From sequence record PP328843.1: a DNA stretch of 64,000 nucleotides, one strand, 5' to 3'. The stretch's first letter is position 1. Every line of letters begins with the position of its first letter. Shown here piece after piece: positions 46,022 to 49,780 of the stretch. A program made the translations under genes and the position numbers. The notes under the pieces were generated by a model. It made no database searches, was not told the origin of the DNA, and saw only the letters and a program-made list of their open reading frames with translations. The DNA comes from Escherichia phage 215Ecol030PP.

Positions 46022-46080
46022 GTTATCGAGTTGGTGCCATTATATACATCGTTTTCTGATTGTGGTTTGTGTGCTTTCAA

Positions 46081-46105
46081 AATGAAGAAAGGGGCCGAAG
46101 CCCCT
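46081..46105 (-). terminator. terminator hairpin after hoc
   Basis: AGGGGCCGAAGCCCCT with T-rich tract on minus strand. Confidence 0.5.
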
Positions 46106-46109
46106 GAGA

Positions 46110-47528
46110 TTATGGATAGGTATAGATGATACCAGTTTCTAAAGCAGTTTTATGAATGATGTATCCATTACGCGATTCTTGGACATCAACTTCTGGATAA
46201 TCTTTCATCATCTTCTGAAGAGTGTAACGATGCAGGTAGTATTTACTATCTGGATCTTCAGTTTTCCAATCTTTACCTTCTTCAGTCATTTTTTGGATTT
46301 CATCCATAACCCACCAACCGCACCAGATGTAAGCTGAGCTACGATGTGGAAGAGGATGAACATAAGGTAATTCACCTTCTGGTTCCGGAGCAGCTTTATC
46401 AGTTACCTGAACTTGACCTTCTGCTGTAATAGTTTTGCTATCATAATCAGCAGCAGTAACAGTTGCAGTAACTTCAATAGTTTGACTTCCAACAGATGAT
46501 GTATCAACGGTGTATACATTAGTTGACCCTTCTACAGGAGAAGAATCTTTCTTCCATGAATACGTAATTTGCGCTTCTTCCGGAGCATCCGTAACGTTAG
46601 CAGTAAATGTAGCCGAAGCATCTTGCTGAACATTAATAGAAGGAGGAGTCAATGTAACCTGTGGATTCATTGTCTTCTTATTAACTGTCAATGATACTTC
46701 ATTAGAAGTAACTTCCTTTTCATTATAATTTTCTGCAGTTACTTGGGCTACGCATTTAATTCTTTTTACTCCACTTGTAGTTGGAGTATAGTTAAATGTA
46801 GAGTTAGTTTCTCCACCAACTTGTGAATCATCTACATACCACTGATACGTAGCAGACGCTCCGTCAGGTTGAGAAGCTAATGCAGCAGTAAATTGAACCG
46901 GGGTTCCAATTACTCCAGCAGCAGGACTAGCAGGAGTTACTGCCAAGGTAGTTGTCTGTGTCTTTTTATTAACTGTCAATGATACTTCATTGGAAGTAAC
47001 GCTCAGTGCATCATAATCTGTCGCAGTTACTTGAGCTACACACTTAATTTTTTTAACTCCGCTTGTAGTAGGAGTATAATTGAATGTAGCAGAAGTTGCT
47101 TCGCTCACAGGAGAACCGTCAACGTACCATTGATACGTAGCAGATGCGCCCGATGGCTGCGAAGCTAAAGCAGCAGTAAATTCAACAGCTGTTCCGATTA
47201 CTCCTTCTGGAGGACTATTAGGAGTTACAGCTAAGGTAGTTGTCTGTGTCTTATTTTGAACTGTGATAGTTGTACTAATTTCAGCTGTTTCAGCTTCAGC
47301 TTCTGGAACTGTATTTGTTGCAACCACTTTAATAGTCTTTTGACCAGCAGGTCCTTTTAATACATAATTAAAGGTTGCTTCAGCTCCATCCTGTGGAACA
47401 TTATCTACACTCCAAGCATAGGTAATAGTTCCACCTTCAGTTTGACCACTGGGTGCAGCAGTAAACTGCTTGGTTTCATCAATAACCCCCGTTGGTGTTT
47501 TAGGAGTTATATCAACTGTAAAAGTCAT
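46110..47528 (-). CDS. hoc: highly immunogenic outer capsid protein Hoc, 472 aa with four Ig-like domains plus capsid-binding C-terminus
   Basis: Ig-like repeats and conserved C-terminal domain; synteny between 24.3 and inh. Confidence 0.88.
   Translation of the reverse strand: MTFTVDITPKTPTGVIDETKQFTAAPSGQTEGGTITYAWSVDNVPQDGAEATFNYVLKGPAGQKTIKVVATNTVPEAEAETAEISTTITVQNKTQTTTLAVTPNSPPEGVIGTAVEFTAALASQPSGASATYQWYVDGSPVSEATSATFNYTPTTSGVKKIKCVAQVTATDYDALSVTSNEVSLTVNKKTQTTTLAVTPASPAAGVIGTPVQFTAALASQPDGASATYQWYVDDSQVGGETNSTFNYTPTTSGVKRIKCVAQVTAENYNEKEVTSNEVSLTVNKKTMNPQVTLTPPSINVQQDASATFTANVTDAPEEAQITYSWKKDSSPVEGSTNVYTVDTSSVGSQTIEVTATVTAADYDSKTITAEGQVQVTDKAAPEPEGELPYVHPLPHRSSAYIWCGWWVMDEIQKMTEEGKDWKTEDPDSKYYLHRYTLQKMMKDYPEVDVQESRNGYIIHKTALETGIIYTYP
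46677..47252 (-). repeat. tandem duplication of two ~288-bp units encoding adjacent Ig-like domains of Hoc (~85% aa identity)
   Basis: protein repeat KTQTTTLAVTP...SNEVSLTVNK occurs twice in tandem; DNA similarity visible at 46680 vs 46965. Confidence 0.8.
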
Positions 47529-47537
47529 AAGTTATCC

Positions 47538-48218
47538 TTATTTTAATGTTACGAAAGAAGAATTACGTGTTTCACGAATTAGAACTGATCCGTCACGATT
47601 AATGTAGTAAATTAAGCTAAATAAAGTTTGGTGTGCTGACGCGTGTTCAAAACTAGTTGGGTGAGATTTCCAATCCGGAGTTTCAGCAATCCACTGGTAA
47701 ATCCACCAAGGAACGGTGCAGAATCCTGGATTTTTTCCAATCAGCTGAAGATTCGGACTAAAGTTTTCCGGAAGAGTAAATACAGACAGCTTTTCAGATT
47801 CAATAATCTCAGCTACAGCCTGCTCGAATTTTTCTTCAACAAAAGGAGTATCTTCAATCAAAACATCGGTATTTTCAGGAATTTTATCCGTTTCTACTAC
47901 TTCAATTTTAATGTCAGATTTAACCGGAGAATCAATCAGAAGTGCTGCTTCTGGATTGACTTCTTCATCGTCATATTTTAATCCGTCTGCGGCATCAGCA
48001 GCATCAATTAAGTCTTTAATAGATAACCCATCAGTCTCTGGCATAGGTTCACTAGCGAGCTTCTGGAGAGCTTCTTCAATATCATTAACGATATTATCAA
48101 AAGATTTATTCTTTTTGACCTTTATACCAAACTGTTCAGCATATTCAGCTAATTTAGCTTTAGCTTCTTTGTTATCATCAAGAGCCTTCAGCTCTGCAAT
48201 ATAATCTTTATCTATCAT
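47538..48218 (-). CDS. inh: inhibitor of prohead protease (226 aa)
   Basis: length/synteny. Confidence 0.85.
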   Translation of the reverse strand: MIDKDYIAELKALDDNKEAKAKLAEYAEQFGIKVKKNKSFDNIVNDIEEALQKLASEPMPETDGLSIKDLIDAADAADGLKYDDEEVNPEAALLIDSPVKSDIKIEVVETDKIPENTDVLIEDTPFVEEKFEQAVAEIIESEKLSVFTLPENFSPNLQLIGKNPGFCTVPWWIYQWIAETPDWKSHPTSFEHASAHQTLFSLIYYINRDGSVLIRETRNSSFVTLK

Positions 48219-48268
48219 AATATTTCCTCAGTATAAATATAGATATATTTATTACATGGTATTTAGAC

Positions 48269-49780
48269 ATGACTGACATTAAAGTACATTTTTATGATTT
48301 TAGTCACGTGAGAATTGATTGTGAAGAAAGTACATTTCATGAACTCCGTGATTTCTTTAGCTTTGAAGCTGATGGGTATCGTTTTAATCCGAAGTACAGA
48401 TATGGCCACTGGGATGGACGAATCCGTCTGTTAGATTATAATCGTCTTCTTCCATTCGGCTTAGTCGGGCAAATTAAAAAGTTCTGTGATAACTTTGGCT
48501 ATAAAGCCTGGATTGACCCACAAATTAACGAAAAAGAAGAATTATCAAGAAAAGATTTTGATGAATGGCTTTCTAAATTAGAAATCTATTCAGGAAATAA
48601 AAGAATTGAACCACACTGGTATCAAAAAGATGCAGTGTTCGAAGGATTAGTTAATCGTCGTAGAATTCTTAATCTTCCAACATCCGCTGGTAAATCTTTA
48701 ATTCAAGCTTTGCTTGCGCGATATTATTTGGAAAATTATGAAGGTAAAATTCTTATCATTGTTCCAACAACTGCTCTGACAACTCAGATGGCTGATGACT
48801 TCGTCGACTATCGTTTATTCAGTCATGCAATGATAAAGAAAATTGGTGGCGGAGCATCAAAAGATGATAAATATAAAAATGATGCACCGGTCGTTGTTGG
48901 TACATGGCAAACTGTAGTAAAACAACCGAAAGAATGGTTCTCACAGTTTGGAATGATGATGAATGATGAATGTCATCTTGCTACAGGAAAAAGTATTTCA
49001 TCTATCATATCAGGTTTAAATAACTGCATGTTCAAATTTGGTCTATCAGGTTCATTACGTGATGGCAAAGCCAATATCATGCAGTATGTTGGAATGTTTG
49101 GTGAAATATTTAAGCCAGTAACGACTTCTAAGTTAATGGAAGATGGACAAGTAACTGAGCTAAAAATTAATAGTATTTTTCTTCGCTATCCCGATGAGTT
49201 CACTACTAAATTAAAGGGAAAAACTTACCAAGAAGAAATAAAAATTATTACTGGGCTCAGTAAAAGAAATAAATGGATCGCTAAATTAGCTATTAAGCTT
49301 GCACAAAAAGATGAAAACGCTTTTGTCATGTTTAAACATGTATCGCATGGTAAAGCTATTTTCGATTTAATTAAAAATGAATACGATAAAGTTTATTACG
49401 TATCAGGGGAAGTTGATACCGAAACCCGCAACGTAATGAAAACCTTAGCTGAAAATGGTAAAGGAATAATTATAGTAGCTAGTTATGGTGTATTTTCTAC
49501 TGGTATTTCAGTTAAAAATCTGCATCATGTTGTTTTAGCGCACGGCGTTAAATCAAAAATCATTGTATTACAAACAATCGGTCGTGTATTACGTAAGCAT
49601 GGTTCTAAAACAATCGCAACAGTCTGGGACCTCATAGATGACGCGGGCGTCAAGCCAAAATCTGCTAATACGAAAAAGAAATATGTTCATTTGAACTATC
49701 TTTTAAAACACGGCATTGATCGTATTCAGCGCTACGCAGATGAAAAATTTAATTACGTAATGAAAACAGTTAATTTATAA
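48269..49780 (+). CDS. uvsW: UvsW DNA/RNA helicase (503 aa)
   Basis: SF2 helicase motifs (PTSAGKS, DECH); length/synteny. Confidence 0.93.
   Translation: MTDIKVHFYDFSHVRIDCEESTFHELRDFFSFEADGYRFNPKYRYGHWDGRIRLLDYNRLLPFGLVGQIKKFCDNFGYKAWIDPQINEKEELSRKDFDEWLSKLEIYSGNKRIEPHWYQKDAVFEGLVNRRRILNLPTSAGKSLIQALLARYYLENYEGKILIIVPTTALTTQMADDFVDYRLFSHAMIKKIGGGASKDDKYKNDAPVVVGTWQTVVKQPKEWFSQFGMMMNDECHLATGKSISSIISGLNNCMFKFGLSGSLRDGKANIMQYVGMFGEIFKPVTTSKLMEDGQVTELKINSIFLRYPDEFTTKLKGKTYQEEIKIITGLSKRNKWIAKLAIKLAQKDENAFVMFKHVSHGKAIFDLIKNEYDKVYYVSGEVDTETRNVMKTLAENGKGIIIVASYGVFSTGISVKNLHHVVLAHGVKSKIIVLQTIGRVLRKHGSKTIATVWDLIDDAGVKPKSANTKKKYVHLNYLLKHGIDRIQRYADEKFNYVMKTVNL

What the first reader, a model, noticed from the sequence alone, without database searches (positions are those of the whole stretch)
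46677..47252. Hoc carries an extra Ig-like domain created by tandem duplication
Two consecutive ~96-aa segments of Hoc are ~85% identical (KTQTTTLAVTP...SNEVSLTVNK), giving four Ig-like domains plus the capsid-binding C-terminus (472 aa versus 376 aa in T4). Hoc Ig domains project from the capsid and mediate adherence to mucus or bacterial surfaces; domain-number variation changes the reach and valency of the display arm.
Basis: partly seen in the sequence, partly recalled or inferred. Interest (0 to 1): 0.4.

Follow-up and report, generated by a model that had tools for sequence, protein, structure and literature searches.

The report
Known four-Ig-domain Hoc variant
This T4-like phage carries the common 472-residue form of the capsid decoration protein Hoc, in which the second Ig-like domain is present twice in tandem; the form was annotated in GenBank years ago and occurs in about a third of sequenced relatives, so it is ordinary.

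Summary
They are 79% identical at both the nucleotide and protein level, not ~85%. The interpretation also holds: T4 Hoc (376 aa) has one such unit. [quoted passage not shown]

It is not new. GenBank AY101183 (phage RB30 hoc, 472 aa, 92.6% identical to this protein) carries the depositor's note [quoted passage not shown]. In an evenly spaced sample of 60 of 656 matching phage records, 19 have the 1419-nt two-copy gene and 33 the ~1131-nt one-copy gene. Three-copy forms (568 aa) also exist.

The two copies are older than the split between this phage and RB30 (dS 0.71 between copies, 0.23-0.31 between orthologous copies). Both are under purifying selection (dN/dS about 0.2), and they differ mainly in predicted loops.

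The likely mechanism is out-of-register recombination at an 18-nt linker microhomology that flanks domain 2, followed by unequal recombination and patchwise exchange among alleles. The functional effect, a longer fibre with a second copy of a reported mucin-binding motif, is inferred and was not tested.

The parts
46110..47528 (-). hoc coding sequence, 472 aa plus TAA stop (46110-46112)
   Evidence: ORF list. 96.6% nt identity to hoc of phage Pu-Krd-SF1 and 100% coverage in hundreds of Tequatrovirus records annotated Hoc. T4 Hoc 5vf3_Z matches at E = 8.6e-222.
47253..47528 (-). Ig-like domain 1 (aa 1-92)
   Evidence: AF2 beta-sandwich with pLDDT 87-95. Corresponds to the RB30 misc_feature 'immunoglobulin-like domain' at 30-311.
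46965..47252 (-). Ig-like domain 2, first copy (D2a, aa 93-188), 'A-type' middle loop (SPVSEATSATF)
   Evidence: Seven predicted strands, pLDDT 89-96. Orthologous to RB30 D2a (dS 0.31, against 0.72 to RB30 D2b).
46677..46964 (-). Ig-like domain 2, second copy (D2b, aa 189-284), 'B-type' middle loop (SQVGGETNSTF); the copy that matches T4's single D2
   Evidence: Pfam PKD best stretch 197-267. dS to T4 D2 is 0.23, against 0.80 for D2a. 99.7% nt identity to the same unit of phage NBG2.
46395..46676 (-). Ig-like domain 3 (aa 285-378)
   Evidence: Pfam Ig_3 and I-set at 289-374. AF2 beta-sandwich, pLDDT 86-93.
46113..46394 (-). C-terminal capsid-binding domain (aa 379-472)
   Evidence: 92/94 identical to T4 Hoc 283-376. 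It retains the residues that PMC10385173 names at the gp23 interface (T4 Y293, H295, R300, W306, W309, W310, D313, E355-G359; here numbered +96), read directly from the sequence. The AF2 model is poor here (pLDDT below 50).
47247..47264 (-). Linker microhomology at the D1/D2a junction (ACAGTTCAAAATAAGACA)
   Evidence: 15/18 identical to the D2b/D3 junction. The same holds in T4. It marks the outer edge of the TRF array.
46959..46976 (-). Duplication junction D2a/D2b (ACAGTTAATAAAAAGACA; protein ...SLTVNK|KTQTTT...)
   Evidence: Its left half matches the D2b/D3 junction and its right half matches the D1/D2a junction.
46671..46688 (-). Linker microhomology at the D2b/D3 junction (ACAGTTAATAAGAAGACA)
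   Evidence: It marks the other edge of the TRF array, 46671-47264.
47535..47539 (-). Shine-Dalgarno AAGGA, 6 nt upstream of the hoc ATG, overlapping the inh stop codon
   Evidence: Read directly from the sequence.
46079..46104 (-). Terminator-like hairpin GGGGC-TTCG-GCCCC followed by a T-rich run, just after the hoc stop
   Evidence: Read directly from the sequence. A 'terminator' feature is annotated at the same place in phage NBG2 (H16/H17).

Best explanation
This is the ordinary two-copy (472-aa, 'RB30/PP01/RB27-type') allele of the Tequatrovirus head decoration gene hoc. Hoc is a monomeric fibre. Its C-terminal domain sits at the centre of each gp23 hexamer, and a string of Ig-like domains points outward. 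Here domain 2 is present twice in tandem, giving D1-D2a-D2b-D3-Cterm.

Origin (inferred). An out-of-register recombination took place between the 18-nt near-identical linker sequences that flank D2 (ACAGTTnAnAAnAAGACA, encoding TV-x-N/K-K-T). This duplicated exactly one 288-nt domain, in frame. Once two 288-nt repeats exist, unequal homologous recombination can raise or lower the copy number; 1, 2 and 3 copies are all observed. Ordinary recombination between co-infecting phages shuffles short loop-coding patches among copies and alleles.

Consequence (inferred from published T4 Hoc work). The capsid anchor is unchanged. The fibre should be about one Ig domain longer, roughly +45 A on T4's ~180 A. 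It displays two non-identical D2 modules, each retaining the NEVSLT motif whose S-L-T residues were reported as the MUC2-binding site of a related Hoc. This would change the reach, valency and fine specificity of weak adhesion to mucus glycans or bacterial surfaces.
For: Shown here.
- Tandem 288-nt repeat and exact in-frame 96-aa units.
- One unit in T4 and three in UGKSEcP1.
- Lengths of the top-120 protein clusters: 376 aa in 74, 472 in 29 and 568 in 7, with a few one-off lengths; classed by D2 copy number they are 81 one-copy, 30 two-copy and 9 three-copy.
- Four confident beta-sandwiches whose best PDB matches are four-Ig strings.
- C-terminal domain 92/94 identical to T4.
- RB30 hoc record with the depositor's note on the intragenic repeat and four Ig-like features; window Hoc is 92.6% identical to RB30 Hoc.
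- About one third of sampled Tequatrovirus records have the 1419-nt form (19 of 52 full-length matches).
- Linker microhomology, 15/18 nt, at both edges of D2 in this phage and in T4, coinciding with the edges of the TRF array.
- Copies under purifying selection (pN 0.13, pS 0.46, dN/dS 0.2) and positionally orthologous to the RB30 copies (dS 0.31 and 0.23, against 0.72-0.99 across paralogs).
- 16 of the 20 amino-acid differences fall in predicted loops (P = 0.006).
- Mosaicism: the same variant patches occur in units at all positions. The window's D2b is 99.7% identical to that of NBG2, while the whole gene is only 95.0% identical.

From the literature.
- T4 Hoc is a ~180 A fibre with the capsid anchor at the C terminus; the number of Ig domains varies from 1 to 10 among Hoc homologues; D2 and D3 bind E. 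coli surfaces (PMC10385173).
- S183/L184/T185 of D2 are needed for MUC2 binding in phage PNJ-9 Hoc (PMC11853027). These are the SLT of NEVSLT, present here at residues 183-185 and 279-281.
Against: No function was measured for this or any other two-copy allele. No paper in the searchable library compares 1-, 2- and 3-copy Hoc. The microhomology-mediated origin is inferred from present-day sequences only. The direction of change in any given lineage (gain or loss) is unresolved. T4's single D2 is a chimera: D2b-like over nt 25-216 and D2a-like over nt 217-264. A single in-register deletion from an A-B array would produce the opposite arrangement, so extra recombination must be invoked. The C-terminal domain was poorly modelled (pLDDT below 50), so its fold rests on sequence identity to T4.
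Confidence: 0.9

Rival explanations
1. The array was born already divergent. Unequal (linker-to-linker) recombination between two co-infecting phages carrying different single-copy alleles, one A-type and one B-type, joined them in tandem. On this view there was no intragenic duplication followed by slow divergence.
For: Single-copy alleles of all three middle-loop types exist (A 22, B 52, C 8 cluster representatives). The copies differ at dS 0.71, two to three times the orthologous divergence. hoc alleles are highly mosaic. Recombination between co-infecting T4-type phages is frequent (general knowledge).
Against: The array order is strongly biased (A-B in 24 of 32 two-copy sequences counted, which include the window and RB30; A first in all 9 three-copy representatives), and the copies are positionally orthologous between this phage and RB30. 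This fits one or a few old events equally well. The data here cannot separate the two scenarios.
Confidence: 0.3
2. The multi-copy form is ancestral within Tequatrovirus, and the T4-type 376-aa Hoc is a secondary deletion product. On this view the domain is 'extra' only relative to the reference phage.
For: The paralogs are older than the split between the compared alleles. Single-copy alleles carry any of the three paralog types or chimeras of them, as repeated collapse of an A-B-C array would produce. 288-nt repeats with long identical ends are good substrates for deletion.
Against: Published, more distant Hoc proteins such as RB49 have three Ig domains (PMC10385173). Single-copy forms are the majority (33 against 19 in the sample). 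T4's B(N-terminal part)/A(C-terminal part) chimera is the opposite of what one simple deletion would give.
Confidence: 0.3
3. The repeat is an assembly artefact, such as a mis-joined or artificially expanded repeat.
For: Tandem repeats can be mis-assembled in short-read data (general knowledge).
Against: The copies differ at 61 of 288 nt, so they cannot be collapsed or expanded by mistake. The reading frame is intact. The same architecture is present in many independently sequenced genomes and in a Sanger-era single-gene record.
Confidence: 0.01

Closest known systems
Hoc of phage RB30 (GenBank AY101183.1, protein AAM52483.1)
   Same: 472 aa, with the same D1-D2a-D2b-D3-Cterm layout. The tandem repeat is at the same position, and the depositor annotated it as 'intragenic repeat led to appearance of additional immunoglobulin-like domain'. 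It is 92.6% aa and 92.2% nt identical to the window gene, and the copies are positionally orthologous.
   Different: 35 amino-acid differences, concentrated in the variable loop patches of D1, D2a and D2b. The C-terminal loop patch of D2b is ADDYNAKEV in RB30 and AENYNEKEV here.
Hoc of phage T4 (NP_049793.1; PDB 5vf3 chain Z and related entries)
   Same: Same gene position, the same D1, D3 and capsid-binding domain (C-terminal domain 92/94 identical), and the same D2 family.
   Different: T4 has a single D2 (376 aa) and no tandem repeat. Its D2 is D2b-like for the first three quarters and D2a-like in the last variable patch.
472-aa Hoc of PP01, RB27, NBG2, IME340, Pu-Krd-SF1 and many other Tequatrovirus phages
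   Same: Full-length 1419-nt matches at 92-96.6% identity, annotated Hoc or PKD-domain protein. About one third of sampled records have this form.
   Different: Allelic differences only. No database sequence found here is more than 96.6% (nt) or 96% (aa) identical to the window gene or protein.
Three-copy Hoc (568-570 aa) of phages UGKSEcP1 and UGKSEcP2 and related metagenomic sequences
   Same: The same 288-nt D2 unit in tandem, with the same linkers.
   Different: 3.1 copies instead of 2.1. The third unit is usually the 'C-type' (SLVDGETTTTF ... TTVGAKTVK).
Hoc-like proteins with other numbers of Ig domains (Klebsiella phage PMBT63, four Ig; Serratia phage Muldoon, ten Ig; E. coli phage PNJ-9, two Ig)
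   Same: A capsid-binding domain plus a variable-length string of Ig-like domains. Variation in domain number is already described as a feature of the family (PMC13435897, PMC10385173, PMC11853027).
   Different: These are more distant proteins. Their extra or missing domains are not the recent D2 tandem copies seen here.

Membership tests
Hoc (highly immunogenic outer capsid protein / Hoc-like head decoration) of T4-type phages | C-terminal capsid-binding domain with the conserved gp23-contact residues (T4 Y293, H295, R300, W309, W310, D313, loop E355-S-R-N-G359) | tested here: met
   Residues 379-472 are 92/94 identical to T4 283-376. All the named residues (from PMC10385173) are present at +96, read directly from the sequence.
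Hoc (highly immunogenic outer capsid protein / Hoc-like head decoration) of T4-type phages | N-terminal string of Ig-like (PKD/I-set-like) beta-sandwich domains | tested here: met
   Pfam PKD at 2.6e-11, above its cut-off, plus Ig_2, Ig_3 and I-set near theirs. AF2 gives four seven-stranded sandwiches with pLDDT of about 90. The top Foldseek matches are four-Ig strings at E of about 1e-12.
Hoc (highly immunogenic outer capsid protein / Hoc-like head decoration) of T4-type phages | Overall sequence homology to T4 Hoc | tested here: met
   phmmer against PDB 5vf3_Z gives E = 8.6e-222 in two stretches that together cover the whole protein.
Hoc (highly immunogenic outer capsid protein / Hoc-like head decoration) of T4-type phages | Conserved genomic position between inh and 24.3/24.2/rnlB | tested here: met
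   Window ORFs compared with the T4 annotation.
Hoc (highly immunogenic outer capsid protein / Hoc-like head decoration) of T4-type phages | One monomer bound at the centre of each gp23 hexamer on the mature capsid; dispensable for growth | not testable with these tools
   Needs virion proteomics, cryo-EM or genetics.
Hoc (highly immunogenic outer capsid protein / Hoc-like head decoration) of T4-type phages | Weak adhesion to mucin glycans or bacterial surfaces through the Ig-like domains | not testable with these tools
   Only motif conservation could be checked: the NEVSLT motif of D2 (SLT reported as critical in PMC11853027) is present in both copies.
Two-copy (RB30-type, 472-aa) Hoc allele class | In-frame tandem 288-nt repeat of domain 2 between D1 and D3 | tested here: met
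   compared with the RB30 repeat_region at 367-944 and Ig-like features at 312-599 and 600-887.
Two-copy (RB30-type, 472-aa) Hoc allele class | First and second copies orthologous to the first and second copies of other members | tested here: met
   dS for WIN D2a against RB30 D2a is 0.31 and for D2b against D2b 0.23, while cross-paralog values are 0.72-0.99. The A-B middle-loop order is shared by 24 of the 32 two-copy sequences counted (30 cluster representatives plus the window and RB30).

The most novel reading that the evidence does not exclude
The D2 array of Tequatrovirus hoc may be a copy-number-variable cassette system. It has one to three ordered paralogous Ig modules (types A, B and C), and their loop-coding patches are reshuffled among copies and alleles by recombination. 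On this reading it works as a population-level diversity generator for a capsid adhesin, with copy number and loop combinations tuned to the mucosal or bacterial surfaces of a niche, and is not a neutral length polymorphism. The polymorphism and the mosaicism are shown here. Their adaptive role is not tested, and the searched library held no systematic description of them.
Probability: 0.25. Interest if true: 0.4.

Novelty: already known. Interest (0 to 1): 0.1.

Why it matters
The finding matters little as a discovery. The duplicated Ig-like domain in Hoc was annotated in GenBank long ago (accession AY101183), the 472-aa form is common in sequenced T4-like phages, and variation in Ig-domain number among Hoc proteins is stated in the literature. 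Its practical value is modest. Hoc is the standard T4 display and vaccine scaffold and the model protein for phage adherence to mucus, so natural 1-, 2- and 3-copy alleles offer ready-made variants for testing how fibre length and domain valency affect mucus or cell binding. That test has apparently not been done.

Tried and rejected
- Counting copies per genome by megablast with a single 288-nt unit failed. The paralogs are too divergent (79%) for the second copy to be reported, so 'places_in_record' was mostly 1 even in two-copy phages.
- A 120-nt query across the D2a/D2b junction was also uninformative. The tool joins non-colinear pieces, so known two-copy phages such as PP01 appeared as '2 pieces'. 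The count was taken instead from the span of the full-gene match in an evenly spaced sample.
- Five literature searches found no paper in the held library that describes the RB30-type repeat or compares 1-, 2- and 3-copy Hoc. Only the GenBank annotation and general statements on domain-number variation were found.
- An exact T4 late-promoter motif (TATAAATA) was not found on the hoc strand in 47401-48400. One-mismatch versions (TCTAAATA, AATAAATA) lie upstream of inh. Expression signals were not pursued further.
- The AF2 model of the C-terminal domain was poor (pLDDT below 50), probably because the alignment contained only close relatives. Its assignment rests on sequence identity to T4.
- RB49 Hoc (crystal structure of three Ig domains) did not appear among the top 50 Foldseek matches or in phmmer at E <= 0.01. 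This was not pursued.
- Assembly artefact and chance similarity were considered and rejected.

Full report
**1. The observation**

The window is a Tequatrovirus (T4-like) genome segment. A 22-kb stretch around the finding is about 97% identical to many T4-like coliphages and Shigella phages. The local gene order rnlB-24.2-24.3-hoc-inh-uvsW is that of T4.

The finding lies inside the minus-strand ORF 46110-47528 (472 aa). Tandem Repeats Finder reports one array at 46671-47264 with period 288, 2.1 copies, 79% matches and score 750. The repeat finder gives two 288-nt copies 288 nt apart.

Shuffling one unit gives 8.5 +/- 2.7 identities (maximum 20 in 20,000 trials) against 76 observed. The other Ig-like domains of the protein are only 31-45% identical to each other or to these units.

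**2. What it is**

The protein is Hoc.
- It matches T4 Hoc (PDB 5vf3_Z, 376 aa) at E = 8.6e-222 in two stretches. The best stretch aligns query 189-472 with chain 93-376, which means a 96-residue insertion relative to T4.
- T4 hoc (L001) has one copy of the unit and no tandem repeat.
- Pfam reports PKD (2.6e-11) and Ig_2, Ig_3 and I-set matches across the N-terminal 375 residues.
- An AlphaFold2 model built on 46 relatives has pLDDT of about 90 over residues 1-378. It shows four consecutive seven-stranded beta-sandwiches (1-91, 93-187, 189-283, 285-376), and the two repeat units have the same strand pattern.
- Its best PDB matches are four-Ig strings: Dscam1 N-terminal four Ig domains, Sidekick Ig1-4 and ICAM-5 D1-D4, at E of about 1e-12.
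- The C-terminal 94 residues are 92/94 identical to T4. They keep every residue that Fokine et al. (PMC10385173) place at the gp23 interface. The AF2 model of that part was poor, so this rests on sequence.
- The gene has an AAGGA ribosome-binding site overlapping the inh stop codon. A GC-rich hairpin followed by a T-rich run lies just after its own stop.

**3. It is already on record and common**

GenBank AY101183.1 is a single-gene record for hoc of phage RB30 (1419-nt CDS, 472 aa). It annotates Ig-like domains at nt 30-311, 312-599, 600-887 and 888-1172 (and labels 1173-1445 the same way). The window protein is 92.6% identical to it over the full length without gaps.

A megablast of the window gene against 50,697 phage records finds 656 records. 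Full-length 1419-nt matches include PP01, RB27, NBG2, IME340 and many others, annotated Hoc or PKD-domain protein. In an evenly spaced sample of 60 of those 656 records:
- 19 have a one-piece match spanning about 1419 nt (two copies);
- 33 have a two-piece match spanning about 1131 nt (one copy);
- 8 are partial or distant.

So roughly a third of sequenced relatives carry this form.

In the large protein collection, the 120 best cluster representatives have lengths of 376 aa (74), 472 (29) and 568 (7), with a few one-off lengths near these. Classed by D2 copy number they are 81 one-copy, 30 two-copy and 9 three-copy, in steps of exactly 96 residues. A three-copy example, phage UGKSEcP1, shows 3.1 copies of the 288-nt period at the DNA level.

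The literature states in general terms that Hoc homologues carry from one to ten Ig-like domains (PMC10385173). It also describes individual variants that lack a domain or carry an additional one (PMC11853027, PMC13435897). I found no paper in the searchable library that deals specifically with the Tequatrovirus D2 repeat.

**4. How it most likely arose and evolves (inference from sequence)**

*Linker microhomology.* The D1/D2 and D2/D3 junctions share an 18-nt near-identical linker sequence, ACAGTTnAnAAnAAGACA, which encodes TV-x-N/K-K-T. The match is 15/18 both in this phage and in single-copy T4. The TRF array (46671-47264) begins and ends exactly at these two sites. Out-of-register recombination between them would duplicate precisely one domain in frame and give the observed junction ...SLTVNK|KTQTTT....

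*Age of the copies.* By Nei-Gojobori counts, the two copies differ at pS 0.46 (dS 0.71) and pN 0.13, for a dN/dS of about 0.2, so both are maintained by purifying selection. Each is closer to the same-position copy of RB30 (dS 0.31 and 0.23) than to the other-position copy (0.72-0.99). The duplication therefore predates the divergence of these alleles.

*Where the copies differ.* Sixteen of the 20 amino-acid differences fall in predicted loops (hypergeometric P = 0.006). They cluster in three patches, at unit positions 12-24, 46-55 and 78-84.

*Three paralog types.* Across 120 cluster representatives the middle patch defines three types:
- A: SPVxEATxATF;
- B: SQVGGETNSTF;
- C: SLVDGETTTTF, with TTVGAKTVK.

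*Order and mosaicism.* Among 32 two-copy sequences (30 cluster representatives plus the window and RB30), A-B accounts for 24. Among the 9 three-copy representatives, A-B-C accounts for 4. Variants A-C, B-C, A-A, A-A-C and A-B-A also occur, and two sequences carry a much more divergent unit that could not be typed. Single-copy alleles can be A (22), B (52) or C (8). The other variable patches assort almost freely among types and positions. The window's D2b is 99.7% identical to that of phage NBG2, although the whole genes are only 95.0% identical. T4's single D2 is D2b-like over nt 25-216 and D2a-like over nt 217-264.

*Reading.* Together this indicates an old duplication or duplications, followed by unequal recombination that changes copy number and by patchwise recombination between alleles. 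The data do not settle two points. One is whether the array was born by intragenic duplication or by joining two already-divergent alleles. The other is whether T4's single copy is ancestral or a collapsed array.

**5. Likely consequence (inference from published work on T4 Hoc)**

The capsid anchor is unchanged, so the protein should occupy hexamer centres as in T4. T4 Hoc extends about 180 A from the capsid and consists of four domains (PMC10385173). One more Ig domain should therefore add roughly 45 A.

D2 and D3 were reported to bind E. coli surfaces (PMC10385173). In the Hoc of phage PNJ-9, residues S183, L184 and T185 at the end of D2 are required for MUC2 binding (PMC11853027). These correspond to the SLT of the NEVSLT motif, which is invariant in both copies here (residues 180-185 and 276-281). 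The two-copy fibre thus presents two D2 modules with the same reported binding motif but different loops. No experiment on such an allele was found.

**6. Verdict**

The finding is already known: it was explicitly annotated for RB30 and is present in about a third of sequenced Tequatrovirus genomes. Interest is low.

The one mildly interesting by-product is the ordered 1-3-copy A/B/C module polymorphism with loop-patch shuffling. It would merit a systematic recombination-aware analysis and a functional comparison of natural alleles.

Noticed in passing
window 48219-48268 (between inh, 47538-48218 minus strand, and uvsW, 48269-49780 plus strand): Only a 50-nt gap separates inh and uvsW. T4 has the GIY-YIG homing endonuclease gene segE at this position. 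This is the usual presence/absence polymorphism of a mobile endonuclease.
   Followed up: partly
L003 1201-2082 (phage UGKSEcP1 hoc); proteins P0001-P0008: Three-copy Hoc alleles (568-570 aa; 3.1 copies of the 288-nt unit) exist in isolates and metagenomes. The third unit is usually a distinct 'C-type'.
   Followed up: partly
proteins P0040 (472 aa, unit at 189-284) and P0043 (567 aa, units at 189-284 and 285-380): Some multi-copy Hoc proteins carry a much more divergent second or third unit (for example KAQTTTLAVTPASPAAVEIGTATTFTANVSNQP...). This suggests that a heterologous Ig module was swapped in, or that an older paralog survives.
   Followed up: no
window 46110-47528 compared with window 36000-58000: hoc is a local diversity hot spot. 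The 22-kb surrounding region is about 97% identical to many phages, while hoc is at best 96.6% and typically 88-93% identical. No database protein found is more than 96% identical to this allele.
   Followed up: partly
hit H247, Shigella phage KNP5 (NC_055713.1 109965-112036): The hoc match in KNP5 is split into two pieces spanning 2072 nt and covers only 76% of the query. This suggests an insertion or rearrangement inside or next to hoc.
   Followed up: no
window 48269-49780: The uvsW ORF is 503 aa here, whereas the T4 RefSeq record annotates a 1764-nt uvsW and notes sequence discrepancies for this section. Related phages list two helicase CDS at this position. This is probably the known uvsW / uvsW.1 annotation difference.
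   Followed up: no
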